This document shows, piece by piece, positions 14,720-32,639 of a stretch of DNA of 46,847 bases. Numbering within the stretch: the stretch's first letter is position 1; the number at the start of each line of letters is the position of its first letter. Below the pieces are notes generated by a model, which was given only the letters and a program-made list of their open reading frames with translations, ran no database searches and was not told where the DNA came from. Source of the stretch: a virus (Duplodnaviria; Heunggongvirae; Uroviricota; Caudoviricetes); IMG/VR virus record IMGVR_UViG_2923318301_000001, positions 1-46,847 of that record. One strand, 5' to 3'. The position numbers and the translations under genes are program-made.

Positions 14720-14736
14720 TTTTGTGGAGAAAGTTG

Positions 14737-15099
14737 ATGCGTGATATTCAAATGGTTCTGGATCGTTGGGGAGCATGGGCGGCGAGTGATAGTTCAGGAG
14801 TTGACTATTCTCCTATAGCTGCTGGGTTTAAAGGGCTTCTTCCCTATACAAGCAAAACACGTCAGGCTTGTTCAGATAGTGATGCATTAATTCTTGAAGG
14901 TTGTCTTGCTCGTCTAAAGCAAAAAAGGCCGGACGAACATTCGCTTCTTGTTGCCCATTACCTATTCGGTATCTCTAAAAGAAAGCTCGCCAAGGCTCGT
15001 AAAAAGGATGAGAAATTAATACGCATTGAGATACAGATGGCTGAGGGATTTATCGATGGTTGCCTTAGTATGCTCGATATACGTTTAGAATGTGAATAG
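14737..15099 (+). CDS. Late-gene antiterminator Q-like protein
   Basis: 120 aa from ATG at 14737 with GGAG ribosome-binding site (track uses TTG at 14722); sits between the nin-type region and the lysis genes; followed directly by a terminator. Confidence 0.6.
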   Translation: MRDIQMVLDRWGAWAASDSSGVDYSPIAAGFKGLLPYTSKTRQACSDSDALILEGCLARLKQKRPDEHSLLVAHYLFGISKRKLAKARKKDEKLIRIEIQMAEGFIDGCLSMLDIRLECE

Positions 15100-15103
15100 A
15101 TAC

Positions 15104-15134
15104 AACAACGGCTCTTAGAGAGCCGTTGTTTTTA
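15104..15134 (+). terminator. Intrinsic terminator immediately after Q
   Basis: Perfect 11-bp stem acaacggctct / agagccgttgt, loop ttag, then TTTTT. Confidence 0.65.
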
Positions 15135-15303
15135 GAAACTGTTTTTTATGACTGAACCTGTGGTGCAACTTAAAAAGTTACTGTAGCCATTGACGCCATT
15201 GTTGCTTGTTTTTTGAGCAGTGGATGGAATGCTTGCTGGCTTAGGCGCAGCTGTAGTTGTATGCCTGTTAGTATAGACTACAAAGTTACCTGTAGATGAT
15301 TTG

Positions 15304-16299
15304 TTATCCATGTCGAGCCCACCCCTCTGAGATAAGGTTATGATTTATGCCGAACTGACCTGGGACGCCTGGAACTTGCAAACGCTGTAACATCCCCTCA
15401 GTGCGGAATTGATATGAAAACGTGTCTGGAGCCTCTAAAATGCTTCTGACAGATACGTACGATGCCTGGTTAACTGTTCCTAAGATAGCATTTGGGTCAA
15501 AAGGTTCACCCAGATGCATCTCAGTTTTGAAATCTTCATAAATTTCTTTGATCAGACCGTAAAGGTGCTCATCTGGTTTTTCCACCGTAAGACCTAAATC
15601 GTTTACCGCTTCAATCCTATTTATAGTGTAGTCATGGCTACCAGAATCACTACAAAGGAAACTTACAATTTTCTCAATGCTTTCACTATCAGTGAGTTGG
15701 TGAGACAGTAGTTTTCTTGCGAGCATTTGAATCTGCGCTTTAGCTCGATAGACTTTTCCAAGTACCAAGGGATGAACCTTTTCACTTAATGCAAGGAGGA
15801 TCTGTGCAAGTGAGGCATCATCTTTGATACTCAAATCATGCTTAACTACTTCAAGATAGCCATTGATTTCTTCAACACTGACTGGAAGTTGAAGTGGCTG
15901 CCCATTGATTATGACCGAAGGGTTAAGTGGTGTATTCACACTTGGATCGATTGGCCCTAAGGTTGCCTGCTTGGTCATAACCAAGTTGTTCGCGCCAAGG
16001 CACATTATCGTCCCAGAACTATGGCATTTTGATGGGATTATGATTTCGAGTTCTTTACAAAACTGACGAAGCAGGTTTACAAGGCTCCATGCTGTTAAAG
16101 TGTCGCCGCCTCGCGTATAGAGCACGAGGCTAATTTTTTGAACATCACCTATCACATCAAGATGATTGACGAACAGATCGAATACATCAGCGCTGATTTG
16201 AGCTTCTTGGTTTGGTCTATCACCTGTTACATAGCATAATACTTTTGAATTGCGTGCTTGTTCCAGTTGCGCATACAGGGCTTTACGCTGCTCAAACAT
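15304..16299 (-). CDS. ClpP/S49-fold serine protease-like protein, reverse-oriented insertion between Q and the lysis cassette
   Basis: 331 aa; LVLYTRGGDTLTAWSLVN ... SKCHSSGTIMCLGAN ... ATLGPIDPS parallels the ClpP/SppA pattern (INSPGG ... GxASMG ... MIHQP); opposite strand to the flanking late genes. Confidence 0.7.
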   Translation of the reverse strand: MFEQRKALYAQLEQARNSKVLCYVTGDRPNQEAQISADVFDLFVNHLDVIGDVQKISLVLYTRGGDTLTAWSLVNLLRQFCKELEIIIPSKCHSSGTIMCLGANNLVMTKQATLGPIDPSVNTPLNPSVIINGQPLQLPVSVEEINGYLEVVKHDLSIKDDASLAQILLALSEKVHPLVLGKVYRAKAQIQMLARKLLSHQLTDSESIEKIVSFLCSDSGSHDYTINRIEAVNDLGLTVEKPDEHLYGLIKEIYEDFKTEMHLGEPFDPNAILGTVNQASYVSVRSILEAPDTFSYQFRTEGMLQRLQVPGVPGQFGINHNLISEGWARHG

Positions 16300-16753
16300 T
16301 CAGATGTCCTTATGTTAAGAATTTTCAAACCAAGAGGTAACATTCATTCAGAACTTACCACACAAGTGGTTAGATTCTATCGGCAAAAAAAGTCCAAAAA
16401 TTAGCGCATTTACAAAACTCAAAGAGAGCAATGAGATTTTGCAAACGTACAGTGTGGATAACTTATGTGCAAAGTGGCGTTGATTTTACTCATTCGCTTC
16501 AAAAAAACCATAGTTTTCCTCACGCGGTCCGCATTTTATCGTGTAATCTGTTAAGAGTGGTTACTTCGCCACACAGCTTAAACCTGCCGTCGAGCGGGTT
16601 TTGTCATTTCTGGGCCTTGGTATTCGTTGGGCTTGGTCTATCTAGCACTTATCCATTGGCTCGGCTTCTTTTACGTTTCCGCTTCTGGTTTGCGGTTCGT
16701 GGTACTCCCTCAATTTGCACCTCCTGTATCGGCGAGGTGAGAGATAACTACAA

Positions 16754-17080
16754 ATGCCTCATAACCCAAATACCTGGCTGGAGTTGGTCCAGAGCTGGTG
16801 GCGTGGAGACACACCGCTGGGCGCAGTGATTATGTCGATCGTTATGGCTGGCTTGCGCATTGCCTATTTTGGCGGTGGTGGTGGCTGGAAACGAAAAACG
16901 CTCGAGATTTTGCTCTGTGGTGCTCTGACGCTGACTTTTGCATCCGCTCTTGAGTATGTCGGATGGCCTAAATCTCTTTCTGTTGCCATTGGTGGCGGCG
17001 TTGGGCTGATCGGGGTCGATGCTATTCGTGGGGCTGCAATGAGAGTAATCGGTAATAAGTTTGGTGGCTCTAAGGAGTAA
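16754..17080 (+). CDS. Holin
   Basis: 108-aa protein with hydrophobic segments and charged C-terminus, immediately upstream of the endolysin. Confidence 0.7.
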   Translation: MPHNPNTWLELVQSWWRGDTPLGAVIMSIVMAGLRIAYFGGGGGWKRKTLEILLCGALTLTFASALEYVGWPKSLSVAIGGGVGLIGVDAIRGAAMRVIGNKFGGSKE

Positions 17081-18049: not shown

Positions 18050-18343
18050 TTATTGTGAGCAATATACCCGTGCTTCCAGCGGAGTATAAATGCCAAAAGT
18101 GATGAAACCGAGCAATCCATTTACGAATGTTTGCTGGGTTTCTGTTTTAACCACATTTTCTGCACCACCACAAATTTTTGCTGCATCGACAGTTTTCTTC
18201 TGCCCAATTCCCGAAACGAAGAAATGATGGGTGATGGTTTCCTTTGGTGTTACTGCTGTCGGTTTGTTTCCAACAGTAAACGTCTGTTGAGCACATCCTG
18301 TAATAAGCATTGCCAGCGCGGCAGAAAACAACATTTTTTTCAT
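18050..18343 (-). CDS. bor: Bor lipoprotein (serum-resistance moron)
   Basis: 97 aa from MKKML; lipobox LITGC; closely matches lambda Bor; opposite orientation to the late operon. Confidence 0.85.
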   Translation of the reverse strand: MKKMLFSAALAMLITGCAQQTFTVGNKPTAVTPKETITHHFFVSGIGQKKTVDAAKICGGAENVVKTETQQTFVNGLLGFITFGIYTPLEARVYCSQ

Positions 18344-19571: not shown

Positions 19572-21671
19572 ATGGGTTTTTCATCAGCCCGAAATTTGGG
19601 AAGGGACATATCGGCAGGATTTTCCCCACCACGTCGCATGCCGATTTCGGAGGCTGTTAAAAAATTCATGCGTGTTCCCAAGGGGGCTGGTAACTCGGTG
19701 CCATGGGATCCTGAACTGACACCCTACATCATTGAGCCCATGAACTGCCTGGCATCGCGTGAATACGATGCGGTGATTTTTGTTGGTCCTGCGCGAACAG
19801 GGAAGACCATTGGTCTGATCGATGGATGGATTGTCTATACCATCGTTTGCGATCCTTCGGACATGCTCGTTGTGCAGATGACCGAAGATAAGGCCCGCGA
19901 GCATTCTAAAAAGCGCCTCGACAGAACGTTCAGAAGCAGTGCGGCGGTAAAGAAAAGAATGAGTCCACGTCGTAACGACAATAATGTTCATGATAAGACG
20001 TTCAGGGATGGCTCGTTCCTTAAAATTGGTTGGCCCTCGGTCAACATTATGTCGTCGTCGGATTACCGGTTTGTCGCCTTAACCGATTACGACCGTTTTC
20101 CGGAGAATATCGACAGCGAGGGTGATGGTTTCTCCCTGGCCTCAAAACGTACCACCACATTTATGTCCGCCGGGATGACTCTGGTGGAGAGCTCGCCGGG
20201 ACGTGACATCTGCGACAGCAAATGGCGACGTAAGTCGCCTCATGAAGCGCCACCGACGACTGGTATTCTTTCCCTTTACAATCGTGGTGACCGCCGCCGC
20301 TGGTACTGGCCATGTCCGCACTGCGGTGAATATTTTCAGCCAGCCATGGATGCCATGACCGGCTACCGTAATGAACCGGATCCCTTTAAAGCCAGTGAGG
20401 CGGCGTATCTACTTTGCCCGCACTGCAGCGGCATTATCACTGCGGAGAAAAAGCGTGAGCTCAATAGTGCAGGAGTCTGGTTGCGTGAAGGTCAGGTCAT
20501 TGATCGTAACGGCAACGTTTCCGGTGAACCGCGCCGCTCCCGTATCGCCAGTTTCTGGATGGAAGGGCCAGCTGCTGCGTATCAGACCTGGGCGCAACTG
20601 GTTTACAAATTACTGACTGCAGAACAGGAGTATGAAGCGACAGGAAGCGAAGAAACACTCAGGGCGGTTATCAACACCGACTGGGGATTGCCTTATCTTC
20701 CTCGTGCCAGCATGGAGCAACGAAAAAGTGAACTGCTTGAGCAGCGGGCAGAGCCAGTTCCTTCCCGCAGTGTTCCGGATGGCGTTAATTTCCTTGTGGC
20801 GACAGTGGATGTGCAGGCGGGACGTCATCGCCGTTTTGTGGTTCAGGTAACGGGCTATGGCAGCCGTGGCGAACGCTGGATTATTGATCGTTACAACATC
20901 ACGCAGTCATTGCGCAGTGACTGCGACGGGGAGAGCCAGCGAATTGATCCGGCCAGCTATCCGGAAGACTGGGATGTCCTGCTGACGGATGTTTTTCATA
21001 AAAGCTGGCCGCTGGCCTCCGATCCTTCTCAACAAATGCGACTGATGGCAATGGCGGTGGACTCCGGCGGTGAAGACGGGGTCACTGATAATGCCTATAA
21101 ATTCTGGCGTCGTTGCCGTCGTGATGGCCTTGGTAAACGTATTTACCTGTTTAAGGGTGACAGCATCCGGCGCGCAAAACTGATCAGCCGTACATTCCCT
21201 GATAACACCGGACGAACGGGCCGCCGGGCGCAGGCCGCAGGTGATGTGCCGCTCTGGCTTCTTCAGACGGATGCCCTGAAAGACCGGGTGAATAACGCGT
21301 TATGGCGTGACTCGCCAGGTCCAGGCTATGTGCATTTCCCTGACTGGCTGGGGAGCTGGTTTTACGACGAACTGACGTATGAAGAGCGGAGCAGTGACGG
21401 GAAATGGAGTAAGCCGGGTCGCGGTGCCAACGAAGCTTTTGACCTGATGGTGTATGCCGAGGCGCTGGTCATTCTGCATGGATACGAAAAGATCCGCTGG
21501 CCGGATGCACCGGAGTGGGCGAGCCGGGAAACCTGGCTGGAGTGTGTCCCGGACAGTACCGAACCGTCACCCTCACCGGAGCCGGTATCCACGCCTGTTA
21601 AAAAACAAAAACGGAAGAAAACAGTAACTGACGATGTTAACCCCTGGCTGACTTCCGGAGGATGGTTATGA
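19572..21671 (+). CDS. Terminase large subunit (lambda gpA family)
   Basis: 699 aa; Walker-A-like VGPARTGKT, Zn-ribbon CPHCGEYF ... CPHCSG, nuclease region. Confidence 0.9.
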   Translation: MGFSSARNLGRDISAGFSPPRRMPISEAVKKFMRVPKGAGNSVPWDPELTPYIIEPMNCLASREYDAVIFVGPARTGKTIGLIDGWIVYTIVCDPSDMLVVQMTEDKAREHSKKRLDRTFRSSAAVKKRMSPRRNDNNVHDKTFRDGSFLKIGWPSVNIMSSSDYRFVALTDYDRFPENIDSEGDGFSLASKRTTTFMSAGMTLVESSPGRDICDSKWRRKSPHEAPPTTGILSLYNRGDRRRWYWPCPHCGEYFQPAMDAMTGYRNEPDPFKASEAAYLLCPHCSGIITAEKKRELNSAGVWLREGQVIDRNGNVSGEPRRSRIASFWMEGPAAAYQTWAQLVYKLLTAEQEYEATGSEETLRAVINTDWGLPYLPRASMEQRKSELLEQRAEPVPSRSVPDGVNFLVATVDVQAGRHRRFVVQVTGYGSRGERWIIDRYNITQSLRSDCDGESQRIDPASYPEDWDVLLTDVFHKSWPLASDPSQQMRLMAMAVDSGGEDGVTDNAYKFWRRCRRDGLGKRIYLFKGDSIRRAKLISRTFPDNTGRTGRRAQAAGDVPLWLLQTDALKDRVNNALWRDSPGPGYVHFPDWLGSWFYDELTYEERSSDGKWSKPGRGANEAFDLMVYAEALVILHGYEKIRWPDAPEWASRETWLECVPDSTEPSPSPEPVSTPVKKQKRKKTVTDDVNPWLTSGGWL

Positions 21672-21880
21672 ATCAGAATGATATTGAAGCCATGATTCAG
21701 CGTTATACGGAAGCTGAAATGGCGGTGCTGGACGGAAAATCCGTCACTTTTAATGGTCAGCAGATGACCATGGAAAACTTATCTGAGATCCGGCAGGGAC
21801 GGCAGGAGTGGGAGCGCCGCCTTGCGGCTCTGATTTCACGACGACGGGGGCATCCCGGGTACCGGCTGGCGAGGTTCTGA
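21662..21880 (+). CDS. Head-tail connector protein, gpW-like
   Basis: 72 aa between terminase and portal; overlaps both neighbours at start/stop codons. Confidence 0.6.
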   Translation: MVMNQNDIEAMIQRYTEAEMAVLDGKSVTFNGQQMTMENLSEIRQGRQEWERRLAALISRRRGHPGYRLARF

Positions 21881-23355
21881 TGGCAATTCTTGATGATGTG
21901 ATTGGCGTTTTTTCACCAGGATGGAAAGCGGCAAGGCTGCGTTCCCGTGCGGTGATTCAGGCTTATGAGGCCGTAAAAACGACGCGGACACACAAAGCCC
22001 GACGGGAGAACCGAACTGCCGACCAGTTAAGCCAGTACGGGGCCGTGTCGTTACGTGAGCAGGCCCGTTACCTTGATAACAACCACGATCTGGTCATTGG
22101 TGTATTTGACAAGCTGGAAGAACGGGTGGTGGGGAAAAACGGGATTATTGTCGAGCCACATCCGGTATTACGCAATGGGGCCATTGCCCGTGATCTGGCA
22201 GCGGAGATACGCACCCGATGGAGTGAATGGTCTGTCAGTCCGGAAGTCACCGGGCAGTTTACCCGTCCGATGCTGGAACGTCTGATGCTGCGTACCTGGC
22301 TGCGCGATGGTGAGGTGTTTGCCCAGATGGTTTCCGGGCGCATAAACAGCCTGACGCCTTCTGCCGGTGTTCATTTCTGGCTGGAGGCGCTCGAGCCGGA
22401 CTTTATTCCCATGACCAGTGATGAGAGCAACAGGCTGAATCAGGGCGTGTTTGTTGATGACTGGGGGCGTCCCGAAAAATATCTGGTGTATAAAAGCCGT
22501 CCCGTATCCGGGCGGCAGATGGAAACCAAAGAAGTGGATGCAGAGCGAATGCTGCATCTTAAATTTGTTCGCCGTCTGCACCAGATGCGCGGGACGTCTT
22601 TATTGTCCGGTGTGCTGATCCGCCTCAGCGCCCTGAAAGAGTATGAAGATTCTGAGCTGACTGCAGCAAGGGTCGCCGCTGCTCTGGGGATGTACATCCG
22701 CAAAGGCGACGGACAGAGCTATGAAACGGATGGTAATGACAGCAAGGAGAATGAACGCGAGCTTACCATTCAGCCAGGCATTATTTACGACGATCTGAAA
22801 CCCGGCGAAGAAATCGGAATGGTGAAGTCGGATCGCCCAAATCCTAACCTTGAAACTTTTCGTAATGCTCAGTTGCGTGCCGTGGCGGCGGGCAGTCGTC
22901 TGAGTTTTTCCAGTACAGCGCGCAACTATAACGGCACTTACAGCGCCCAGCGTCAGGAGCTGGTTGAATCCACTGATGGCTACCTGATCCTGCAGGACTG
23001 GTTTATTGGTGCCGTCACCCGCCCGATGTATCGTGCCTGGCTGAAACAGGCTGTGGCATCCGGTGTTATCAGGCTACCCCGCGATCTTGACCGTTCTTCA
23101 CTGTATACCGCGGTGTATTCCGGACCGGTGATGCCGTGGATTGACCCTGTTAAGGAGGCTGAGGCCTGGAAAATCCAGATTCGTGGTGGAGCGGCGACAG
23201 AATCAGACTGGGTACGTGCAGGTGGTCGTAATCCGGATGATGTCAAACGTCGGCGCAAGGCCGAAATTGATGAAAACCGCAAGCTGGACCTGGTATTTGA
23301 TACCGATCCGGCCAGTGATAAAGGAGGCAGCAGTGCCGCAACGAAACGACAGTAG
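21880..23355 (+). CDS. Portal protein (lambda gpB family)
   Basis: 491 aa from ATG at 21880 (TGATG overlap with W stop); the track's 21808 start is an in-frame extension overlapping W. Confidence 0.85.
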   Translation: MAILDDVIGVFSPGWKAARLRSRAVIQAYEAVKTTRTHKARRENRTADQLSQYGAVSLREQARYLDNNHDLVIGVFDKLEERVVGKNGIIVEPHPVLRNGAIARDLAAEIRTRWSEWSVSPEVTGQFTRPMLERLMLRTWLRDGEVFAQMVSGRINSLTPSAGVHFWLEALEPDFIPMTSDESNRLNQGVFVDDWGRPEKYLVYKSRPVSGRQMETKEVDAERMLHLKFVRRLHQMRGTSLLSGVLIRLSALKEYEDSELTAARVAAALGMYIRKGDGQSYETDGNDSKENERELTIQPGIIYDDLKPGEEIGMVKSDRPNPNLETFRNAQLRAVAAGSRLSFSSTARNYNGTYSAQRQELVESTDGYLILQDWFIGAVTRPMYRAWLKQAVASGVIRLPRDLDRSSLYTAVYSGPVMPWIDPVKEAEAWKIQIRGGAATESDWVRAGGRNPDDVKRRRKAEIDENRKLDLVFDTDPASDKGGSSAATKRQ

Positions 23356-23401
23356 CCGCAGTACACCGACGACCAGTCCGAAGAATAATTCCTGGTTCAG
23401 G

Positions 23402-25360
23402 ATGCAGGCTGGTCACCAGAGTGACGCGGATATTTATATTTATGACGAGATTGGTTTCTGGGGTGTTACAGCGAAGCAGTTTATCAGTGATCTGAATGCA
23501 CTGGGCGATATCACCCACATTAATCTCCATATCAATTCACCGGGTGGCGATGTCTTTGAAGGCATCGCCATTTTTAATGCGCTGAAAACACATGGTGCGT
23601 CCATTACCGTTTATGTCGACGGTGTGGCGGCATCAATGGCGTCGGTCATTGCGATGGTGGGAAACCCGGTCATTATGCCGGAAAACACCTTCATGATGAT
23701 TCATAAACCATTTGGCTTTACGGGCGGTGATGCGGAGGACATGCGCACCTATGCCGACCTGCTCGATAAAGTTGAGGCGGTTCTGTTACCCGCTTATGCA
23801 CAGAAAACCGGGAAAACCACCGATGAAATTGCTGCCATGCTGGCGGATGAGACCTGGATGTCCGGTGCCGAATGTCTGGCACAGGGATTTGCTGATCAGG
23901 TGACACCAGCCGTTAAGGCAATGGCATGTATTCAGTCAAAACGTACAGAGGAATTTAAAAAGATGCCGGAATCCATTCGAAACATGATTACTCCGCCACG
24001 CAACAGTGCTCCACGCGTACAGGATGATGAACCTGCAGCCTCCCGGACGCCAGTGCAGGCAGCAGCACCCGTGGTGGATGAAAACAGTATCCGTGCGCAG
24101 GTACTGGCAGAGCAAAAAGCGCGTGTAAACGGTATTAATGATCTGTTTGCCATGTTTGGCGGGCGTTATCAGATGCTGCAGGCCCAGTGTCTTGCCGATC
24201 CTGAATGTTCGCTGGAGCAGGCCCGTGAAAAGCTGTTGAACGAGATGGGGCGCGAGTCCACGCCATCCAATAAAAATACCCCGGCTCATATTTATGCCGG
24301 TAACGGTAATTTTGTGGGGGACGGGATCCGCCAGGCGCTGATGGCGCGTGCCGGATTTGAAAAAAACGAACGTGATAATGTCTACAACGGGATGACCCTG
24401 CGTGAATATGCCCGTATGTCACTAACTGAACGGGGTATTGGGGTTTCCGGTTATAACCCGATGCAGATGGTCGGTGCGGCGTTCACACACAGTACGTCTG
24501 ACTTCGGTAATATTCTGCTGGATGTTGCGAACAAAGCCATTCTGCAGGGCTGGGAAGATGCCCCTGAAACCTATGAACAGTGGACGCGGAAAGGTCAGTT
24601 GTCTGATTTTAAAATTGCCCATCGTGTGGGTATGGGGGGCTTCAGTGCTCTGCGTCAGGTGCGTGAAGGGGCGGAATATAAATACGTCACCACCGGAGAT
24701 AAACAGGCCACTATTGCACTGGCGACCTATGGCGAGCTGTTCAGTATCACCCGTCAGGCCATTATCAATGATGATCTGAATATGCTGACCGATGTCCCGA
24801 TGAAACTGGGCCGTGCGGCGAAATCCACTATTGCCGATCTGGTTTATGCCATTCTGACGTCTAACCCGAAAATCTCCACAGATAATGTAAGTCTGTTCGA
24901 TAAAGCGAAACATGCAAACGTACTGGAGAGCGCTGCAATGGACGTGGCATCGCTGGATAAAGCCCGCCAGTTGATGCGCGTTCAGAAAGAGGGGGAGCGT
25001 CATCTGAATATTCGTCCTGCGTTCGTACTGGTACCGACGGCGATGGAGTCTGTTGCTAACCAGGTCATTCGCTCCTCAAGTGTCAAGGGGGCTGACATTA
25101 ACGCCGGTATTATTAACCCGGTGAAAGATTTTGCGACCGTTATTGCAGAGCCTCGTCTTGATGATAACAGCCAGACCACCTTCTACCTGGCTGCGTCAAA
25201 AGGCTCCGATACGATTGAAGTGGCTTATCTCAACGGTGTGGATACGCCATATATTGATCAGATGGAGGGCTTCAGTGTGGATGGCGTGACAACGAAAGTG
25301 CGTATTGACGCCGGTGTCGCGCCAGTTGATCACCGCGGTCTGGTGAAATGTACGGCGTAA
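23402..25360 (+). CDS. Prohead protease - scaffold - major capsid fusion protein
   Basis: 652 aa from first ATG after the portal stop; N-terminal ClpP-like protease motifs (INSPGGDVFEG, SMASVIAMVG, MIHKP), central linker, C-terminal HK97-fold-like capsid region. Confidence 0.8.
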   Translation: MQAGHQSDADIYIYDEIGFWGVTAKQFISDLNALGDITHINLHINSPGGDVFEGIAIFNALKTHGASITVYVDGVAASMASVIAMVGNPVIMPENTFMMIHKPFGFTGGDAEDMRTYADLLDKVEAVLLPAYAQKTGKTTDEIAAMLADETWMSGAECLAQGFADQVTPAVKAMACIQSKRTEEFKKMPESIRNMITPPRNSAPRVQDDEPAASRTPVQAAAPVVDENSIRAQVLAEQKARVNGINDLFAMFGGRYQMLQAQCLADPECSLEQAREKLLNEMGRESTPSNKNTPAHIYAGNGNFVGDGIRQALMARAGFEKNERDNVYNGMTLREYARMSLTERGIGVSGYNPMQMVGAAFTHSTSDFGNILLDVANKAILQGWEDAPETYEQWTRKGQLSDFKIAHRVGMGGFSALRQVREGAEYKYVTTGDKQATIALATYGELFSITRQAIINDDLNMLTDVPMKLGRAAKSTIADLVYAILTSNPKISTDNVSLFDKAKHANVLESAAMDVASLDKARQLMRVQKEGERHLNIRPAFVLVPTAMESVANQVIRSSSVKGADINAGIINPVKDFATVIAEPRLDDNSQTTFYLAASKGSDTIEVAYLNGVDTPYIDQMEGFSVDGVTTKVRIDAGVAPVDHRGLVKCTA

Positions 25361-25383
25361 ACGTCGCAGACAACAACTCTGAT

Positions 25384-25403
25384 GGCCCGTAAGGGCTTTT
25401 TTT
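25384..25403 (+). terminator. Weak putative terminator after capsid gene
   Basis: 4-bp stem gccc / gggc, loop gtaa, then T7; a second 7-bp hairpin at 25415..25433 has no T-tract. Confidence 0.35.
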
Positions 25404-25446
25404 GTACCTGAAATCAGCCCCTGAACGGGGCTGTGCGGAGACAGTT

Positions 25447-25770
25447 ATGGCAAAGAATTTTGTAGAAGAAGGAAAAACGGTGGCGATTGTTGCCAGTGCA
25501 GCCATCAGCAGCGGAGATCTGGTGCAGGTGGGCGATGTTTTTGCGGTGGCGCTGACCGATATTCCACAGGGTGAAACAGGCGACGGCATGACCGAAGGTG
25601 TGTTTATGCTGCCTAAGCTGAAAACGGATGACATGAAAACGGGTAAGAAGGTTTATCTGAAGTCCGGAAAAGTTCAGCTGACTAACAGCGGCTCTGATCC
25701 GCTGGTCGGGGTTGTCTGGGCAGATGCCGGAACCAGTGCAGAAGAAGTGCCGGTAAAACTCAATGTCTGA
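25447..25770 (+). CDS. Head decoration / DUF2190-like protein
   Basis: 107 aa from ATG at 25447; position directly after the capsid gene; family recalled, not verified. Confidence 0.5.
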   Translation: MAKNFVEEGKTVAIVASAAISSGDLVQVGDVFAVALTDIPQGETGDGMTEGVFMLPKLKTDDMKTGKKVYLKSGKVQLTNSGSDPLVGVVWADAGTSAEEVPVKLNV

Positions 25771-26038
25771 TCCCTTTTCCCGGCTGGCAGCGCGTATGGA
25801 TGCTATCACGGTTAGAAAGATGGGAAAGACAGCCTCGATTAATGATGTCGATATGACTGTGATCCCGGGAGAAACACTGGCAGAGCTGAATGCTCTGTCC
25901 GGACCTGCGGTCTCTCTGGTGGTGTTTTCTTCGGGATACCGCCCACGGCGCGGGGATCGCGTTGTTTATGACGGACAACAATGGACGGTCACACGGCATG
26001 AACGTTTTAACGGTAAGCCAATGATCTTTATTGAGTAA
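25763..26038 (+). CDS. Head-tail joining protein (FII position)
   Basis: 91 aa; position between head genes and the Z-like gene. Confidence 0.5.
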   Translation: MSDPFSRLAARMDAITVRKMGKTASINDVDMTVIPGETLAELNALSGPAVSLVVFSSGYRPRRGDRVVYDGQQWTVTRHERFNGKPMIFIE

Positions 26039-26049
26039 AGAGGTGTGGG

Positions 26050-26628
26050 ATGAAGGGGCTTGAGAATGCCATCCGTAATCTGAACAGCCTTGATACCCGT
26101 ATGGTGCCACAGGCCAGCGCATGGGCGATAAACCGTGTGGCACAGAAAGCGGTCTCGGTCGCCACCCGGCAGGTTGCCGGGAATACCGTTGCGGGAGATA
26201 ACCAGGTGAAAGGGATCCCCCTGAAACTGGTACGTCAGCGTGTCCGGGTGTTTAAAGCCAGTCCGTCAGGAAAAATGACGGCCAGGATCCGCGTTAACCG
26301 GGGCAATCTGCCCGCTATTAAGCTGGGGACAGCCCGGGTCAGACTGGCCCGGCGTGGTGGAAAACTGCAGTACCGTGGCAGTGTGCTGAAGGTGGGTAAA
26401 TATCTTTTCCGGGATGCGTTTATTCAGCAACTGGCGAATGGTCGCTGGCATGTGATGCGGCGTATTGATGGCAAAAATCGTTACCCCATTGATGTGGTGA
26501 AAATCCCGCTGTCCGGACCGCTGACACAGGCATTTGAAGATGCCCGCGACCGCATCATTGCTGCGGAAATGCCGAAACAGCTGGGGTATGCACTGAAACA
26601 ACAACTGAGGTTATGGCTGACCCGATGA
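26050..26628 (+). CDS. Z: Tail completion protein, lambda Z-like
   Basis: 192 aa, same length and position as lambda Z. Confidence 0.65.
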   Translation: MKGLENAIRNLNSLDTRMVPQASAWAINRVAQKAVSVATRQVAGNTVAGDNQVKGIPLKLVRQRVRVFKASPSGKMTARIRVNRGNLPAIKLGTARVRLARRGGKLQYRGSVLKVGKYLFRDAFIQQLANGRWHVMRRIDGKNRYPIDVVKIPLSGPLTQAFEDARDRIIAAEMPKQLGYALKQQLRLWLTR

Positions 26629-27026
26629 ACCGACATACACAAATCCGCCAGGCCGTACTGGCACGCCTTCGGGAACAGTGTGGAGACAGCGCCACGTTTT
26701 TTGACGGGCTTCCGGCATTTGTTGATGCGCAGGAACTGCCTGCCGTGGCGGTGTGGCTGAGTGATGCTCAGTACACCGGAAAAATGACGGATGAAGATGA
26801 CTGGCAGGCTGTTCTGCATATTGCTGTCTTCATCCGGGCACAGGCACCGGATTCAGAGCTGGATATGTGGATGGAGAGCACCATTTTCCCGGCCCTGAAT
26901 GATGTACCGGCACTTTCCGGACTCATCGACACCCTGATCCCACTCGGTTTTAACTATCAACGTGATAATGAGATGGCCACCTGGGCGATGGCGGAAATCA
27001 CGTACCAGATCACGTACACGAATTAA
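26613..27026 (+). CDS. U: Tail terminator protein, lambda U-like
   Basis: 137 aa; shares ATFFDG, PAVAVWL, DSELDMWMES, ITYQITY-type blocks with lambda U. Confidence 0.8.
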   Translation: MADPMNRHTQIRQAVLARLREQCGDSATFFDGLPAFVDAQELPAVAVWLSDAQYTGKMTDEDDWQAVLHIAVFIRAQAPDSELDMWMESTIFPALNDVPALSGLIDTLIPLGFNYQRDNEMATWAMAEITYQITYTN

Positions 27027-27036
27027 GGAGGTGGCA

Positions 27037-27780
27037 ATGACCACACCAAATCCACTGGCAAAAACGAAAGGTGCGGGAACGACGTTCTGGATGTACACCG
27101 GCAAGGGCGATGCGTTTGCGAACCCTTTATCGGACACTGACTGGCTGCGTCTTGCGATGGTGAAGGATCTGCAACCTGGCGAAATGACCGCTGATGCAGA
27201 AGATGACACTTATCTCGATGATGAAGATGCAGACTGGAAAACGACAACCCAGGGGCAGAAATCCGTCGGTGATACTTCGGCGACGCTGGCCTGGCGTCCG
27301 GGTGACAGCGGGCAGAAAAAACTGGTTCAGTTGTTCGACTCCGGTGAAGTCTGCGCGTTTCGTATCAAATATCCCAACGGTACTGTTGATGTTTTCCGTG
27401 GCTGGCTGAGTTCACTGGGTAAAACCATTGCCTCAAAAGACGTGATGACCCGCACCGTGAAAATCAGCGGTGTGGGGCGTCCATATCTGGCAGAGGAGGG
27501 CACTGAAACTGTGGGCGTTACCGGGCTGACGGTGGCACCGGCATCCGCCAGTGTCAATGTGGGAGCAACCACCACGCTGACCTTTACAGTAAAACCTGAC
27601 GGAGCCAGTGACAAAGCGATCAGTGTGCATTCGACAGATCCACAGACTGCCACTGTGACCCTGAACGGACTTGTGGCCACGGTGAAAGGCGTGAAGCAGG
27701 GCAGTGTCAGCATTGTGGGCATGACTTCTGACGGCGATTTTGTGGCAGTGGCTACGGTGGCTGTCAGCGCCGCAGGTTAA
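27037..27780 (+). CDS. V: Major tail protein V (with C-terminal Ig-like domain)
   Basis: 247 aa from ATG at 27037 (AAGGAGG ribosome-binding site); KGAGTTFWMYTG, FRGWLSS blocks match lambda V; track start at 26962 rejected. Confidence 0.9.
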   Translation: MTTPNPLAKTKGAGTTFWMYTGKGDAFANPLSDTDWLRLAMVKDLQPGEMTADAEDDTYLDDEDADWKTTTQGQKSVGDTSATLAWRPGDSGQKKLVQLFDSGEVCAFRIKYPNGTVDVFRGWLSSLGKTIASKDVMTRTVKISGVGRPYLAEEGTETVGVTGLTVAPASASVNVGATTTLTFTVKPDGASDKAISVHSTDPQTATVTLNGLVATVKGVKQGSVSIVGMTSDGDFVAVATVAVSAAG

Positions 27781-27800
27781 CAGGATGATACTCATCATTT

Positions 27801-27826
27801 GCCCCGGTTATTCGGGGCTTTTTTGC
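27801..27826 (+). terminator. Intrinsic terminator/attenuator after the major tail gene
   Basis: Stem gccccg / cggggc, loop gttatt, then TTTTTT. Confidence 0.6.
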
Positions 27827-27837
27827 AGGTGGAGAAT

Positions 27838-28227
27838 ATGATGTTTCTGAAACAGGGCACGTTTAATTATGAAAAACAGTCCGTGGTGCTCAGTGAGCTG
27901 TCCGGGCTGCAGAGAATTGAATATCTGGCGTTTGTTCAGCAGCGAACGGCAAAGTTTGATGCCGGGGAGGGAGAACTGCCGGAGGCTGAACGACAGATTG
28001 CTTTTCTGCGGATGGGGATGGATATCAATGCCTGGCTGGTTTCCCGCTCACTGTGGAATGCGGATCAGTCTAAGGATGTAGAGACGCTTTGCGCATCCGT
28101 TATTACAACATGGTCGTATGATGCCCTGGGTGCGGGGGCGGAGATGGTTCTGTCGCTGAGCGGTATGGGGGCCATTGATAATGCCGGGGATGATGAGCAT
28201 GAGGCGCTGACGCCGGAAAAGTCCTGA
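27838..28227 (+). CDS. G: Tail assembly chaperone G
   Basis: 129 aa from ATG at 27838; lambda G-like (SELSGLQRIEYLA); ends just after a putative slippery site. Confidence 0.8.
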   Translation: MMFLKQGTFNYEKQSVVLSELSGLQRIEYLAFVQQRTAKFDAGEGELPEAERQIAFLRMGMDINAWLVSRSLWNADQSKDVETLCASVITTWSYDALGAGAEMVLSLSGMGAIDNAGDDEHEALTPEKS

Positions 28228-28565
28228 CGCGGGAAATGCAGTTTGTCATGCGGCTTGCCCGGGAGTTCCGGCGGGCAGACTGGCGGCGGATGCTGTCGGA
28301 AATGTCGGCCACTGAGCTTGGTGAGTGGGGCGATTATTTCCGGATGCAGAGCTTCAGTGATGTGTGGATGGATGCGCAGTTTGCCTCGCTGAAGGCATTG
28401 ATCGTGAGAATGGTGTCCGGCAGCAGTGATGCTGCGGTGGCTGATTTCAGCCTTTTACCGGAAGAGAACGGGATACCGGAGCGAACGGACGAAGAACTGA
28501 TGCATCTTGGAGAAGGTATTTCCGGAGGTGTGCGTTATGGACCAGATAGCCAACCTGGTCATTGA
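28215..28565 (+). CDS. T: T segment of the G-T tail chaperone, expressed by -1 frameshift from G
   Basis: Open -1 frame from 28203 to 28565 with no own ribosome-binding site; heptamer GGAAAAG at 28215..28221 one base different from lambda GGGAAAG. Confidence 0.65.
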   Translation, partial: GKVLTREMQFVMRLAREFRRADWRRMLSEMSATELGEWGDYFRMQSFSDVWMDAQFASLKALIVRMVSGSSDAAVADFSLLPEENGIPERTDEELMHLGEGISGGVRYGPDSQPGH

Positions 28566-31500
28566 TTTGGGGATTGATGCGGCAGAGTTTAAAAATGAAA
28601 TTCCCCGTATCAAAAACCTTCTGAATGGTGCCGCCAGCGATGCAGAACGGTCTTCTGCCCGTATGCAGCGTTTTATGGAGCGTCAGACTCAGGCCGCCCG
28701 GCAGACAACGCAGGCGGCTTCTTCGGCTGCAACAGCCGCCTCCGTCCATGCGCAGACGGTGGAGAAGAACGCACAGGCTCATGAACGCATGGCTCGCGAG
28801 GTGGAGAAAACCCGCCAGCGCATGGAGGCGCTGAGCCAGAAAATGCGCGATGAACAGGCGCAGGCCATGGCTCTGGCGGAGGCTCAGGATAAAGCGGCTG
28901 CTGCGTTTTATCGTCAGATTGACAGTGTGAAACAGGCCAGTGCGGGGCTGCAGGAATTACAGCGTATTCAGCAGCAGATCCGACAGGCCAGACACAGTGG
29001 CGGGATTGGTCAGCAGGATTATCTGGCGCTGATTTCTGAGGTTACGGCGAAAACCCGTGTTCTTACACAGGCTGAGGAAGAGGCTACCCGACAGAAAGTG
29101 GCGTTTATCCGTCAGCTTAAAGAGCAGGCAACCCGCCAGAATCTTTCTTCTTCTGAGTTGCTTCGTGCTAAGGCTGCCCAGCTGGGGGTAAGCAGTGCTG
29201 CAGAAGTGTATATCCGCAAAATGGAGCAGGCAGGAAAAGCCACGCATTCGCTGGGTCTGAAAAGTGCAGCGGCCCGCCAGGAGATAGGCGTTCTGATAGG
29301 TGAACTGGCTCGCGGCAATTTAGGTGCGCTGAGGGGATCCGGGATAACGCTGGCTAACCGTGCCGGATGGATAGACACACTGATGTCACCGAAAGGCATG
29401 ATGCTGGGCGGGGTTATTGGCGGTATTGCCGCGGCCGTCTATGGTCTGGGTAAAGCCTGGTATGACGGTCAGAAGGAGGGGGAAGAATTTAACCGCCAGT
29501 TGTCGCTGACGGGGCATTATGCCGGAGTCACTGCCGGGCAGCTGTGGACGCTTAGTCGTGCTATTTCCGGGAATGGTATCACGCAACATGCTGCAGCCGG
29601 TGCGCTGGCTCAGGTGGTGGGGAGTGGTGCATTTCGTGGAAACGATATCGGTATGGTGGCGAGAGCTGCCGCACAGATGGAGCGATCGGTTGGCCAGTCG
29701 GTCAGCGATACCATAAATCAGTTTAAGCGGCTGAAGGATGATCCTGTAAATGCCGCGAAGGCTCTGGACAATGAGCTGCATTTTCTTACTGCCACTCAGC
29801 TTGAGCAGATACGTGTCCTTGGGGATCAGGGACGGTCCAGTGATGCTGCACGGATAGCCATGTCTGCACTGGCAGAGGAAACCGGTCGGCGTACTGCGGA
29901 TATTGATAATAACCTCAATGCGCTTGGCAGTACGCTGAAGTATCTGTCTGATTTGTGGAGTCGTTTCTGGGATGCGGCCATGAATATTGGTCGTGAAGAC
30001 TCGCTGGATGAACAGATTGCCGCTTTACAGGAGAAAGTGTCGCGGGCGAAAAGACTCCCCTGGACGGCATCATCTTCTCAGGTTGAATACGATCAGCAGC
30101 GTCTTAACGATCTTCAGGAGAAAAAACGCCAGAAGGATTTGCAGGATGCAAAAGAGCAGGCAGAGCGGAATTATCAGGAGCAACAGAAACGACGTAATGC
30201 TGAAAATGCTGCACTGAACCGGATGAATGAAACGGAAGCAGCACGACATCAGCGTGAAATTGCGCGTATTAATGCCATGCAGTACGCCGACCAGGCTGTC
30301 AGGGATGCGGCGATACAACGTGAAAATGAACGTTACGAGAAAGCCCTGGCATCCGGTAAGAAAAAAACACGCGAAACCCGTAATGATGAGGCCACCCGGT
30401 TATTGCTGCAGTACAGTCAGCAACAGGCACAGGTGGAAGGGCAGATTGCTGCTGCAAGACAGTCAGCAGGCATTGCCACTGAAAAGATGACAGAAGCGCA
30501 TAAACAGCTTCTGGCTCTGCAGCAGCGCATCAGCGACCTGGACGGGAAAAAACTGACGGCAGATGAAAAGAGTGTGCTGGCCCGTAAAGATGAACTGATT
30601 CAGGCACTGACGCTGCTGGATGTAAAACAGCAGGAGCTTCAGAAACAGACGGCACTCAACGAGCTGAAGAAAAAAACAATTCAGCTGACCAGTCAACTGG
30701 CTGAAGAAGAGCGCGCTCAGCGTCAGCAACATGACCTGGATATCGCCACGGTGGGTATGGGTGATCAGCAGAGGCAGCGATATCAGGTACAACTGAGTCT
30801 TCGCCAGAAATACCAGCAACAGCTGGAGCAGTTGAGGCGGGATAGTGAGCAGAAAGGGACATATAACACGGATGACTACAGAAAGGCCGAGCAGGCGCTG
30901 ACGGAGAGCCTGAACCGACAACTGAATGAGAATCGCCGTTATTGGCAACAGCTTGAAATTGCTCAGGGTAACTGGAAAAACGGTGCTATGCGGGCGTTTC
31001 AGAATTTCACGGCAGATGCGGATAATGCGGCAGGCACTGCTGAGCAGATGCTTACAGCGGCATTTAACAGTGCAGGTAATGCACTGGCAACGTTCTGTAC
31101 TACCGGAAAACTGAACTTCAAATCTTTTACCGCCTCGCTCCTTTCTGATCTGGCAAAAATCATGGCTCAGATGTCCATGATGCAGGCAGTTAAGGGGATT
31201 GGTTCGGCGTTTGGCTGGGGGAGTGCAGCAACTGCCAGTGTGACGCCCAATGCTGATGGTGGTGTTTATCAGTCTGCTGATTTGAGTCGCTACAGTGGCA
31301 CGGTGGTTAACCGTCCGACGTTTTTTGCTTTTGCAAAAGGTGCAGGTGTGATGGGGGAAGCTGGGCCTGAAGCCATTCTGCCTCTGCGTCGTGGTGCTGA
31401 CGGTAAGCTGGGGGTTGTGGCGGATATTGGTGGTTCAGGTATGGCGATGTTTGCCCCGCAGTACAACATCGAGATCAATAACGATGGCACGAACGGGCAG

Positions 31501-31611: not shown

Positions 31612-31937
31612 AAACCTTCCGCTGGAAAGTGAAACCCGGTATGGATGTGGCTTCGGCCCCTTCTGTAAGAAAGGTGCGCTTTGGTGATGGCTATTCCCAG
31701 CGAGCGCCTGCCGGGCTGAATGCCAACCTGAAAACGTACAGCGTGACGCTTTCTGTCCCCCGTGAGGAGGCCACGGTACTGGAGTCGTTTCTGGAAGAGC
31801 ACGGGGGCTGGAAAGCCTTTCTGTGGACGCCGCCTTATGAGTGGCGGCAGATAAAGGTGACCTGCGCAAAATGGTCGTCGCGGGTCAGTATGCTGCGTGT
31901 TGAGTTCAGCGCAGAGTTTGAACAGGTGGTGAACTGA
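31608..31937 (+). CDS. M: Minor tail protein M
   Basis: 109 aa; lambda M-like; ATGA overlap with H. Confidence 0.85.
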   Translation: MKTFRWKVKPGMDVASAPSVRKVRFGDGYSQRAPAGLNANLKTYSVTLSVPREEATVLESFLEEHGGWKAFLWTPPYEWRQIKVTCAKWSSRVSMLRVEFSAEFEQVVN

Positions 31938-32635: not shown

Positions 32636-32639
32636 TCCC

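What the first reader, a model, noticed from the sequence alone, without database searches (positions are those of the whole stretch)
15100..16753. Reverse-oriented ClpP/S49-fold protease gene in the Q-to-lysis slot (the locus that carries stx in toxin phages)
Between the Q terminator (15104..15134) and the holin (16754) the late operon is interrupted by a 331-aa gene on the opposite strand (15304..16299), flanked by 170 bp and 454 bp of non-coding DNA. Its sequence follows the ClpP/SppA pattern (YTRGGDTL ... SKCHSSGTIMCLGAN ... ATLGPIDPS), so it looks like a standalone ClpP-fold serine protease distinct from the head maturation protease, which in this phage is fused to the capsid gene at 23402..25360. 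The Q-S gap is a classic moron locus, and a protease here is not part of any lysis or morphogenesis module I know. Any role in exclusion of competing phages is speculation.
Basis: partly seen in the sequence, partly recalled or inferred. Interest (0 to 1): 0.75.

Follow-up and report, generated by a model that had tools for sequence, protein, structure and literature searches.

The report
Prophage protease-plus-small-protein accessory cassette
A prophage carries, between its late-gene activator Q and the late promoter, a self-contained two-gene unit encoding a ClpP-fold serine protease and a tiny unannotated partner protein; its function is untested, and its placement makes it a reasonable candidate for a new phage-versus-phage conflict system.

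Summary

- The "170 bp of non-coding DNA" holds a conserved 59-aa gene (15132..15311) whose ATG overlaps the protease stop. All 58 non-identical related loci have such an ORF (11.5 expected by chance), with dN/dS 0.05-0.3. PGAP, Pfam and PHROGs all miss it.
- The hairpin at 15104-15130 is the cassette's own terminator, not a Q terminator.
- The gene does not interrupt the late operon and is not in the stx position. A conserved promoter-like, leader and terminator element (16524-16612) lies between the cassette and the holin. It directly follows Q in empty-site prophages, and stx lies downstream of it.

The Q-to-late-promoter slot is a cargo hotspot with at least nine alternative, mostly reverse-oriented cargos. 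These include a PD-Lambda-1-like gene and a PifA-like KAP NTPase.

Function is untested. Lysogen-expressed proteolytic phage exclusion is the leading inference, resting on association only.

The parts
14722..15099 (+). Antiterminator Q gene (left border of the slot). PGAP starts it at 14734.
   Evidence: PF06530 176.9 bits. Distant relative of Q21, PDB 6p18, E 0.003. PGAP annotates 'antiterminator Q family protein'.
15104..15130 (.). 12-bp GC-rich hairpin: the cassette's 3' intrinsic terminator. It is also placed to stop rightward transcription leaving Q (UUUUU on the + strand).
   Evidence: dG -18.2 (+) and -18.7 (-) kcal/mol, z -5.4 and -6.2. Listed by the terminator scan. Terminator-like hairpins follow the small ORF in 26 of 43 other lineages against 2.4 expected. 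No such hairpin at the empty site in L092.
15132..15311 (-). Unannotated 59-aa partner gene. Its ATG overlaps the protease stop by 8 nt (ATGGATAA). The product is polar, S/T/N-rich and predicted disordered.
   Evidence: ORF listed. All 58 non-identical related loci have a 55-81-codon ORF (two outliers, 108 and 125) starting at -50..+15 of the protease stop, against 11.5 expected from shuffles and 18 antisense. Starts fall at -1/-4/-8/-11/-14. dN/dS 0.05-0.32. Iterative HMM links it to 8 other lineages with no true decoy hits among 3,335 small ORFs. No Pfam, PHROG, NCBIfam or PADLOC family. Not annotated by PGAP. No secondary structure on its own, pTM 0.15.
15304..16299 (-). 331-aa SDH-type ClpP-fold serine protease. 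Layout: ClpP-like core about residues 1-137, helical region about 142-273, C-terminal three-stranded sheet 278-330.
16018..16020 (-). Codon of Ser94, the predicted nucleophile (…PSKCH-S-SGT…).
   Evidence: Invariant in 31 and in 46 sequences. Aligns to the Ser of PH1510-N (…AASAGT…) that is Ala in the entry 6m4b.
15946..15948 (-). Codon of Asp118 (GPI-D-PS), invariant. By eye it occupies the sequence position of the ClpP catalytic His motif.
   Evidence: Invariant in 46 of 46. The positional correspondence to ClpP 'IHQP' is my reading of the sequences, not a computed alignment.
15634..15636 (-). Codon of His222 in the invariant loop S219-G-S-H-D223, the predicted catalytic His.
   Evidence: Invariant in 46 of 46, whereas H176 is 44 of 46. 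The loop 220-222 is the only AF2 segment with pLDDT below 50.
16300..16523 (-). Cassette upstream region: Shine-Dalgarno AAGGA (16307-16311) and an extended -10-like TGgTAAGTT (16352-16360). The promoter is not established.
   Evidence: Read directly from the sequence. The consensus scan finds no strong sigma-70 site here. Across lineages, promoter-like sites are only marginally enriched (16 against 12 expected).
16524..16612 (+). Conserved late-regulatory element, inferred to be pR'/Q-loading site/leader/tR'. Components: GCGGTCCGC palindrome (16524-16532); TAnnnT -10-like TAATCT (16544-16549); invariant leader core (16549-16603) with hairpins 16557-16572 and 16580-16601; then a U-run.
   Evidence: Invariant core in five phages. 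Present in every sampled prophage between the reverse cargo and the first forward late gene. Begins 45 bp after the Q stop in the empty site L092, where the -10 is TATTAT. Terminator-like site. Leader fold -16.6 kcal/mol, z -2.3. General Q-cassette architecture from Yin et al., bioRxiv 10.1101/651190.
16754..17080 (+). Holin, the first late gene (right border).
   Evidence: PF05106 88.1 bits. PGAP 'phage holin, lambda family'.

Best explanation
The locus is a horizontally mobile, self-contained two-gene transcription unit. Its order is Shine-Dalgarno, a 331-aa cytoplasmic SDH-type ClpP-fold serine protease (predicted triad Ser94/Asp118/His222), an 8-nt overlap, a 59-aa disordered partner protein, and an intrinsic terminator.

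It is inserted antisense between the antiterminator gene Q and the Q-dependent late promoter of a lambdoid argW prophage. Because it lies upstream of and opposite to the late transcript, it should be expressed independently of Q, most probably in the lysogen.

I infer that it acts in conflict between phages (superinfection exclusion or abortive infection). In this model the protease is the effector. The co-translated, fast-evolving partner is its regulator or first substrate, either an inhibitor/pro-peptide-like clamp or a sensor whose loss or displacement on infection releases proteolysis.

Shown: gene structure, fold, conserved catalytic residues, obligate pairing, purifying selection on both genes, the cassette's own terminator, its mobility between accessory-gene slots, and the hotspot nature of the slot.

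Inferred: timing of expression, proteolytic activity, the role of the partner, and any defence phenotype.
For: Protease identity:
- Family, fold and model results.
- Invariant S94, D118, H222 and G64-G65 down to 43% identity.

Partner gene:
- Present at 58 of 58 loci against 11.5 expected, with coupled starts.
- dN/dS 0.05-0.32, with dN 3-5 times that of the protease.
- HMM-linked across lineages with no decoy hits.
- Independently called in distant genomes and present where callers missed it.

Self-contained unit:
- Terminator after the partner in 26 of 43 lineages against 2.4 expected.
- No other conserved neighbour.
- Antisense to both flanks in 12 of 45 lineages, and the upstream gene is on the opposite strand in 15 of 43.
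- GC 38-43% against 49-59% in the flanks.

Accessory-slot positions:
- Next to S24 repressors, Q/holins, integrases, N and CII.
- Directly after and co-oriented with a cI-like repressor in a Pseudomonas prophage.

Hotspot and defence association:
- At least nine alternative cargos after the same Q.
- These include a PD-Lambda-1-like gene at 2e-89 and a KAP NTPase matching PDC-S20 at 5e-177 and PifA at 6e-18.
- An empty site exists.
Against: - No match to any of the 5,027 PADLOC models.
- Neighbours are ordinary phage genes, not defence islands; the only recurrent PADLOC hits nearby are methyltransferases.
- No experimental or literature link between this family and defence.
- None of 50,697 deposited phage genomes carries it.
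- An independent promoter could not be demonstrated: only weak candidates here and marginal enrichment across lineages.
- Most alternative cargos in the slot are themselves of unknown function, so the association argument is thin.
Confidence: 0.4

Rival explanations
1. Addiction or toxin-antitoxin-like module that stabilises the prophage. One product is harmful (unrestrained protease, or the small protein) and the other neutralises it. Any defence effect would be secondary.
For: - Obligate two-gene unit with translational coupling.
- The partner is disordered and fast-evolving, as many antitoxins are.
- The cassette sits beside HigBA or PemK genes in some loci.
- It is mobile between elements.
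Against: - No similarity to known toxin or antitoxin families.
- The partner has no DNA-binding domain for autoregulation.
- The gene order (large enzyme first, small protein second) and S/T-rich composition are atypical.
- Nothing tested.
Confidence: 0.2
2. A regulator of the phage's own life cycle. The protease would process a phage or host regulator (for example a repressor, antirepressor or lysis timing factor) and the small protein would tune it.
For: - Recurrent placement next to regulatory genes: S24 repressors in 5 neighbours, plus Q, N and CII.
- Directly downstream of a cI-like gene in L011.
Against: - Sibling prophages with the same Q, Nin region and lysis genes replace it with unrelated cargo or have nothing there, so it is dispensable for the life cycle.
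- It occurs in many different slots and phage backbones.
- It is present in only 47 of about 580 E. coli genomes that carry this Q type.
Confidence: 0.15
3. A host-benefit moron unrelated to phages, for example a stress-protein or quality-control protease that raises lysogen fitness. This would be analogous to the nearby iss/bor gene.
For: - Moron-like placement and low GC.
- The same prophage carries iss/bor downstream of the lysis genes.
Against: - No signal peptide or membrane segment, so it is not a surface factor like Bor/Iss (sequence; globular model).
- The rapidly evolving partner suggests an arms race rather than housekeeping.
- The family is seen almost only in prophage or mobile contexts.
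Confidence: 0.1
4. A decaying duplicate of a head-maturation protease plus scaffold remnant with no present function.
For: - Same ClpP fold as prohead proteases, with weak hits to head-maturation PHROGs and NCBIfam models.
- The protease followed by a small polar protein loosely recalls a protease-scaffold arrangement.
Against: - Strong purifying selection on both genes (protease omega 0.02-0.08, partner 0.05-0.3).
- Invariant catalytic residues down to 43% identity.
- More than 4,100 full-length homologs.
- NF045542 scores 28 bits against a cutoff of 120.
- Structurally closest to SDH proteinases, not head proteases.
Confidence: 0.02

Closest known systems
SDH-type ClpP-fold serine proteinases (Pfam PF01972 SDH_protease; NCBIfam NF047768 Clp_like_SDH)
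   Same: - Passes the Pfam gathering score.
- ClpP fold.
- Best structural matches are proteins annotated as serine dehydrogenase proteinase, over about 265 columns.
- Invariant Ser, Asp and His occur in that order.
- PGAP already gives it this name.
   Different: - Only 77 residues match the Pfam profile.
- The NCBIfam equivalog score is 69.5 against a cutoff of 250.
- It has an extra C-terminal three-stranded sheet ending in an invariant E-G-W.
- It is always followed by a coupled small ORF.
- No member of the family has a known substrate or role as far as I could find.
NfeD/STOPP protease PH1510-N with its operon partner stomatin (PDB 2deo, 3bpp, 3viv)
   Same: - The nucleophile Ser aligns.
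- From my own knowledge: it is a ClpP-fold protease whose substrate is the product of the adjacent gene, which serves as a model for how protease and partner might relate here.
   Different: - From my own knowledge, 1510-N is membrane-anchored and uses a Ser-Lys dyad, and its partner is a roughly 250-aa SPFH-domain protein.
- Here the protein is soluble, K91 is not invariant (41 of 46), His222 and Asp118 are invariant, and the partner is a 55-80-aa disordered polypeptide.
- NfeD1b_N Pfam scores 11.7 bits against a cutoff of 40.
Phage head-maturation proteases of the ClpP/S49 type, including this phage's own protease-capsid fusion at 23402..25360
   Same: Same fold, phage-borne, with weak profile hits (PHROGs 1684, 2976 and 133; NF045542).
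   Different: - 21% identity over 66 residues to the resident head protease.
- Below all family cutoffs.
- Outside the morphogenesis module and on the opposite strand.
- Dispensable in sibling phages.
Shiga-toxin (stx) moron locus of lambdoid phages
   Same: Lies in the interval between Q and the lysis genes, and is variable cargo.
   Different: - In Stx2a_1447 and phiP27, stx lies downstream of the conserved promoter-like/terminator element and is co-oriented with the late genes, so it would be Q-dependent.
- This cassette lies upstream of that element and antisense to it, with its own terminator.
Prophage-encoded exclusion/defence genes: PD-Lambda-1, PifA-like KAP NTPase (PDC-S20), rexAB next to cI, Lit protease of e14
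   Same: - PD-Lambda-1-like and KAP NTPase genes occupy the very same slot in sibling phages.
- In a Pseudomonas prophage the cassette sits directly after the repressor gene, the position rexAB holds in lambda (lambda layout from my own knowledge).
- From my own knowledge, Lit shows that a prophage protease can mediate abortive infection.
   Different: - No sequence or profile similarity to any of them.
- Lit is a single-gene zinc metalloprotease.
- No phenotype is known for this cassette.

Membership tests
SDH-type ClpP-fold serine proteinase (Pfam PF01972) | Score at or above the Pfam gathering threshold | tested here: met
   54.2 bits against 31.3, but only residues 53-129 align to profile positions 91-167 of 286.
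SDH-type ClpP-fold serine proteinase (NCBIfam NF047768, equivalog) | Score at or above the curated equivalog cutoff | tested here: not met
   69.5 bits against a cutoff of 250. This makes it a divergent subfamily, not an equivalog.
SDH-type ClpP-fold serine proteinase | ClpP/crotonase fold, and closest structural neighbours within the SDH family | tested here: met
   [not shown]
SDH-type ClpP-fold serine proteinase | Catalytic residues in the order Ser, Asp, His. This definition is recalled from the Pfam annotation; the library's description line reads 'ClpP-like SDH-type serine proteinase'. | tested here: inconclusive
   S94, D118 and H222 are invariant in 46 sequences down to 43% identity and occur in that order. 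S94 aligns to a known catalytic Ser.
SDH-type ClpP-fold serine proteinase | Peptidase activity | not testable with these tools
   Needs purified protein with an S94A control.
ClpP (S14) ATP-dependent protease subunit | Ser-His-Asp triad with His in the '…IHQP' motif; score at ClpP model cutoffs | tested here: not met
   No ClpP NCBIfam or TIGR model is listed for this protein at E up to 1. By my reading of the sequence, the corresponding motif reads GPIDPS, with Asp118 where ClpP has His.
SppA/S49 and NfeD (Ser-Lys dyad ClpP-fold peptidases) | Family model cutoff, and a conserved general-base Lys | tested here: not met
   NfeD1b_N scores 11.7 bits against 40. No SppA model is listed. K91 is present in 41 of 46 and K110 in 43 of 46, so neither is invariant. 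The region around PH1510-N Lys138 does not align.
Phage head maturation protease, ClpP-related (NF045542) | Model cutoff, and location in the head-assembly module | tested here: not met
   28.3 bits against 120. The gene lies between Q and the holin on the opposite strand. The phage has its own protease-capsid fusion scoring 986 bits.
Known or candidate anti-phage defence systems (PADLOC-DB v2.0.0) | Match to any of the 5,027 models | tested here: not met
   No family at E up to 1 for the protease or the small ORF.
Late-operon morons of the stx type | Located downstream of pR'/tR' and co-oriented with the late genes, so that Q drives expression | tested here: not met
   The cassette is antisense and upstream of the conserved promoter-like/terminator element. 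stx in L003 and L004 lies downstream of that element. The identity of the element as pR' is inferred, not mapped.
Prophage accessory-gene (moron) cassette | Variable presence among syntenic phages, its own transcription signals, and atypical composition | tested here: met
   At least nine alternative cargos plus empty sites after the same Q. Own terminator. GC 38-43% against 49-59%. The promoter is not demonstrated.

The most novel reading that the evidence does not exclude
The cassette is a previously unrecognised two-component, protease-based anti-phage system that is widespread in temperate phages of Proteobacteria. In this reading an SDH-type ClpP-fold protease is kept inactive by, or primed on, its co-translated disordered partner. 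It is released on infection to cleave a phage or essential host protein. Because the protease shares its fold with prohead proteases, assembling capsid components are one possible target.
Probability: 0.3. Interest if true: 0.8.

Novelty: new variant of a known kind. Interest (0 to 1): 0.55.

Why it matters
- **A candidate system.** If the cassette is a defence or exclusion system, it would add a ClpP-fold protease effector with a dedicated micro-protein partner to the known repertoire. PADLOC does not contain the family, and more than 4,100 homologs exist with no assigned role.
- **An annotation gap.** A conserved, selected 55-80-aa gene is missed by PGAP, Pfam and PHROGs, and ordinary sequence searches do not detect it as a family.
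- **A sharper map of lambdoid phages.** The Q-to-lysis interval has two distinct cargo sites. One lies upstream of the inferred late promoter: it is antisense and would be Q-independent, and it holds this cassette, PD-Lambda-1-like genes and KAP NTPases. The other lies downstream: it is co-oriented and would be Q-dependent, and it holds stx. This distinction predicts when each type of cargo is expressed.

Tried and rejected
- **Complex model.** I built a paired protease-linker-partner alignment (A4) for a complex prediction.
- **Active-site geometry.** Model coordinates are not exposed to scripts, so no triad distances could be measured.
- **afdb50 fold search.** Unavailable.
- **Literature.** Searches on PF01972, SDH_sah and DUF114, on ClpP-like proteases in phage defence, on DefensePredictor and on metagenomic selections found nothing about this family. 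The Brenes & Laub 2025 paper on prophage-encoded defences is not held.
- **Promoter test.** Consensus promoter scanning upstream of 44 cassette lineages gave only marginal enrichment, so I do not claim a mapped promoter.
- **Small-protein sweep.** A full HMMER sweep with the 59-aa protein found only near-identical copies plus low-complexity noise. Homology across lineages needed local iterative HMMs.
- **Rfam.** No RNA family in the region.
- **Frameshift idea rejected.** I considered that the small ORF might be a frameshift extension of the protease. Every lineage has its own ATG at the stop codon with a Shine-Dalgarno-like GGAGG or GGGTGG upstream, and the relative frame differs between lineages.
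- **Chance ORF rejected.** Ruled out by the shuffle and antisense controls and by dN/dS.
Full report
**1. The observation**

Its borders are as described:
- Q (PF06530, 176.9 bits) ends at 15099.
- A lambda-family holin (PF05106) starts at 16754.
- A 12-bp hairpin lies at 15104-15130. Its dG is about -18 kcal/mol on either strand, with z -5.4 and -6.2.

- 23402..25360 encodes a ClpP-like prohead protease/major capsid fusion (NF045540, 986 bits against a cutoff of 475).
- That fusion shares only 21% identity over 66 residues with the ORF in question.
- The window ends at tRNA-Arg(CCT), next to an integrase ORF.

**2. The protein**

Family scans:

| Library | Result |
|---|---|
| Pfam | SDH_protease (PF01972), 54.2 bits against gathering score 31.3; only residues 53-129 align |
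| NCBIfam | Clp_like_SDH equivalog, 69.5 bits against cutoff 250 |
| PHROGs | phrog_11747 (unknown function), 1.5e-91 over residues 1-286 |
| PADLOC | no match |

PGAP already names the protein 'SDH family Clp fold serine proteinase'.

The family is large, with more than 4,100 hits. These are full-length proteins of about 330 aa, 55-65% identical across Enterobacteriaceae, Pseudomonas, Nitrosomonas and Ectothiorhodospira.

An AlphaFold2 model built on 31 sequences is confident (pLDDT 86, pTM 0.83).
- Against viral models the best matches are giant-virus 'serine dehydrogenase proteinase' proteins over about 265 columns. These rank ahead of the phage ClpP and S49 proteases.

Catalytic candidates:
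- A profile search of the PDB aligns the invariant S94 to the Ser of PH1510-N that is replaced by Ala in entry 6m4b.
- In 46 sequences down to 43% identity, the invariant polar residues are S94, T97, D118-P-S120, E143, R185, Q189, S219-G-S-H222-D223, R285 and E289, plus G64-G65.
- H176 (44 of 46) and K91 (41 of 46) are not invariant.
- The conserved set therefore reads Ser…Asp…His, as the family name implies.
- The protein has no signal peptide or membrane segment (sequence).

**3. A second gene that annotation misses**

Its ATG overlaps the protease stop by 8 nt. PGAP does not annotate it.

I fetched 73 related loci from viral contigs and tested whether such an ORF is a general feature:
- **Presence.** All 58 non-identical loci have an ORF of 55-81 codons (two outliers at 108 and 125) starting within -50..+15 of the protease stop. 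Shuffling the downstream sequence predicts 11.5, and 18 pass on the antisense strand.
- **Coupling.** The ATG sits at -1, -4, -8, -11 or -14 in nearly every lineage. It is preceded by GGAGG or GGGTGG-like sequences formed by the protease's conserved E-G-W codons.
- **Selection.** dN/dS in the small ORF's own frame is 0.05-0.32. Its dN is 3-5 times that of the protease.
- **Independent calls.** Gene callers predict it in distant genomes, and it is present where they missed it.
- **Composition.** The products are polar, S/T/N/A-rich chains with two short hydrophobic motifs.
- **Structure.** The window's copy has no predicted secondary structure on its own (pTM 0.15, a single-sequence model).
- **Not a described family.** There is no match in Pfam or PHROGs. 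A full HMMER sweep of 1.84 billion representatives finds only near-identical copies.
- **Homology across lineages.** Iterative HMMs were run against a background of 3,335 small ORFs from the same loci. They link the window's ORF to partners from eight other lineages, and link at least 19 further lineages to each other. Every apparent decoy hit proved to be a partner ORF located at a protease stop.

**4. The unit is self-contained and mobile**

- A terminator-like hairpin follows the small ORF within 40 nt in 26 of 43 lineages, against 2.4 expected. The hairpin at 15104-15130 is therefore the cassette's terminator. It could also stop rightward transcription leaving Q.
- The nearest neighbours of 45 lineages share no conserved gene.
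- The flanking families are those found at the accessory-gene positions of temperate phages: S24 repressors, Q with DUF968, holins and lysozymes, integrases, portals, N and CII.
- In a Pseudomonas prophage the cassette directly follows a cI-like repressor on the same strand.
- The cassette is antisense to both flanks in 12 of 45 lineages. The upstream gene is on the opposite strand in 15 of 43.
- In the window its GC content is 38-43%, against 49-59% to the left and about 50% to the right.
- A promoter could not be established. I see an AAGGA Shine-Dalgarno and an extended -10-like TGgTAAGTT. The consensus scan is silent in that region, and enrichment of promoter-like sites across lineages is marginal.

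**5. Where the cassette sits relative to the late operon**

Only 47 of 5,426 complete E. coli genomes carry the whole slot. About 780 others share just the last 235 bp before the holin.

That shared segment contains a core that is invariant in SfIV, Stx2a_1447, phiP27 and cdtI. The core consists of:
- a GCGGTCCGC palindrome;
- ten bases;
- a TAnnnT hexamer (TAATCT here);
- a leader of about 30 nt;
- an 8-bp hairpin followed by a U-run (16580-16612).

Position of the element:
- In every prophage sampled it lies between the reverse-oriented cargo and the first forward late gene.
- In strain KC-Dl-1 there is no cargo. The element begins 45 bp after the Q stop, and its hexamer is TATTAT.

This matches the canonical Q cassette described by Yin et al. 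(bioRxiv 10.1101/651190): the Q gene, then pR', a pause site, a terminator, then the late genes. The Q here is a distant Q21 relative.

I therefore infer that the element is the late promoter, Q-loading region and tR'. This is an inference and has not been mapped.

In Stx2a_1447 and phiP27 the methylase, tRNAs and stx genes lie downstream of the element and are co-oriented with it. The protease cassette lies upstream of it and is antisense. So it neither interrupts the late transcript nor occupies the stx position.

**6. The slot is a cargo hotspot**

I sampled fourteen E. coli prophages and four phages that share this Q family. The sub-slot holds:

| Cargo | Notes |
|---|---|
| SDH protease cassette | window and L088 |
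| 339-aa hypothetical | three times |
| KAP-family NTPase | three times; PADLOC PDC-S20 5e-177, PifA 6e-18 |
| DUF6731 pair | three times |
| NYN-domain protein | once |
| Other hypotheticals | four |
| PD-Lambda-1-like gene (phiP27 L22) | 2e-89; forward orientation |
| Empty | twice |

All cargo except phiP27's is reverse-oriented.

The same Nin-Q-cassette-lysis module also occurs on two 43.7-kb circular E. coli records. These have a contractile-tail, HK97-capsid backbone, so the module moves between phage types, and such phages can be recovered as circles.

No deposited phage genome among 50,697 carries the gene. The nearest relatives there are about 25% identical.

**7. Interpretation**

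Firmly supported:
- It is a mobile two-gene unit.
- It encodes an SDH-type ClpP-fold protease with intact, deeply conserved catalytic residues.
- It also encodes a coupled, selected, fast-evolving micro-protein.
- It sits in a Q-proximal cargo hotspot outside the inferred late transcript.

Inferred:
- It is expressed in the lysogen.
- The protein is proteolytically active.
- The partner acts as regulator or first substrate.
- It has a role in phage-phage conflict.

The defence reading rests on placement, on two defence-family cargos at the same site, and on the arms-race-like evolution of the partner. Against it are the absence of any PADLOC match, of any defence-island association and of any experiment. 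The rivals are a toxin-antitoxin-like stabiliser, a life-cycle regulator and a host-fitness factor; these remain open. A decaying head-protease remnant is excluded by the selection data.

**8. Novelty and score**

The protease family is known and already named in annotation, so the fold call itself is not new. Three things are new relative to the libraries and literature I could search:
- the obligate partner gene;
- the self-contained cassette architecture;
- the separation of the Q-S interval into two cargo sites with opposite inferred expression logic.

I rate it a new variant of a known kind, with interest 0.55. It is a solid, testable lead for a protease-based conflict system and a concrete annotation gap, but it has no functional evidence yet.

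Noticed in passing
window 18050-18343 (-): An iss/bor-type lipoprotein gene ('increased serum survival lipoprotein Iss' in the PGAP annotation of the identical prophage) sits antisense just after the lysis genes. Its GC is low (about 40%). This is a second moron in the same phage.
   Followed up: partly
window 16290-16299 / 15304-15325 and the equivalent positions in L015-L083: The protease's conserved C-terminal E-G-W codons (W327 in 45 of 46, E325 and G326 nearly invariant) coincide with the GGAGG or GGGTGG Shine-Dalgarno-like sequence of the overlapping partner ORF. The same bases may be under dual constraint.
   Followed up: partly
window 15634-15645 (protease residues 219-223): The invariant loop S-G-S-H-D that contains the predicted catalytic His is the only segment of the AF2 model with pLDDT below 50 (residues 220-222). 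It may be a mobile catalytic loop.
   Followed up: no
L108 (NZ_CP081704.1, whole record) and NZ_CP081794.1: Two 43.7-kb circular E. coli records typed as plasmids are phage genomes. They have a contractile tail, an HK97-type capsid and a P27-family terminase. They carry the same Nin-Q-cassette-lysis module, plus a type II restriction-modification pair next to the integrase.
   Followed up: partly
L001 10421-12816 (E. coli EJN001): In this 100%-identical copy of the slot, the phage terminase large-subunit gene is annotated as truncated and is followed by another tyrosine integrase. A second element appears to be inserted into that prophage.
   Followed up: no
phages collection: None of 50,697 deposited phage genomes encodes a close homolog of the protease, although 73 prophage-derived viral contigs and 47 E. 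coli genomes do. The nearest relatives are about 25% identical, for example in a Shewanella Mu-like phage and a Klebsiella phage 'SppA protein'.
   Followed up: partly
window 20000-44000: Megablast of this stretch hit the 5,000-record ceiling in the plasmid collection (mostly Klebsiella), while the phage structural genes align only to 20018-38923. Some widespread repeat or IS-like piece probably lies within the stretch. It was not located.
   Followed up: no
L094 8267-9121: In one distant genome the cassette is followed on the same strand by a Trypsin_2-family serine protease and then by transposase genes. This is a second protease next to the first.
   Followed up: no
window 16431-16829 (+): A 132-aa ORF runs through the conserved leader/terminator element and into the holin start. 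It is probably spurious, and PGAP does not annotate it.
   Followed up: no
L102 1-553 (E. coli S3): A prophage with the same Q type lies next to an annotated anti-phage sirtuin gene, dsr1, and its replication region is heavily degraded.
   Followed up: no
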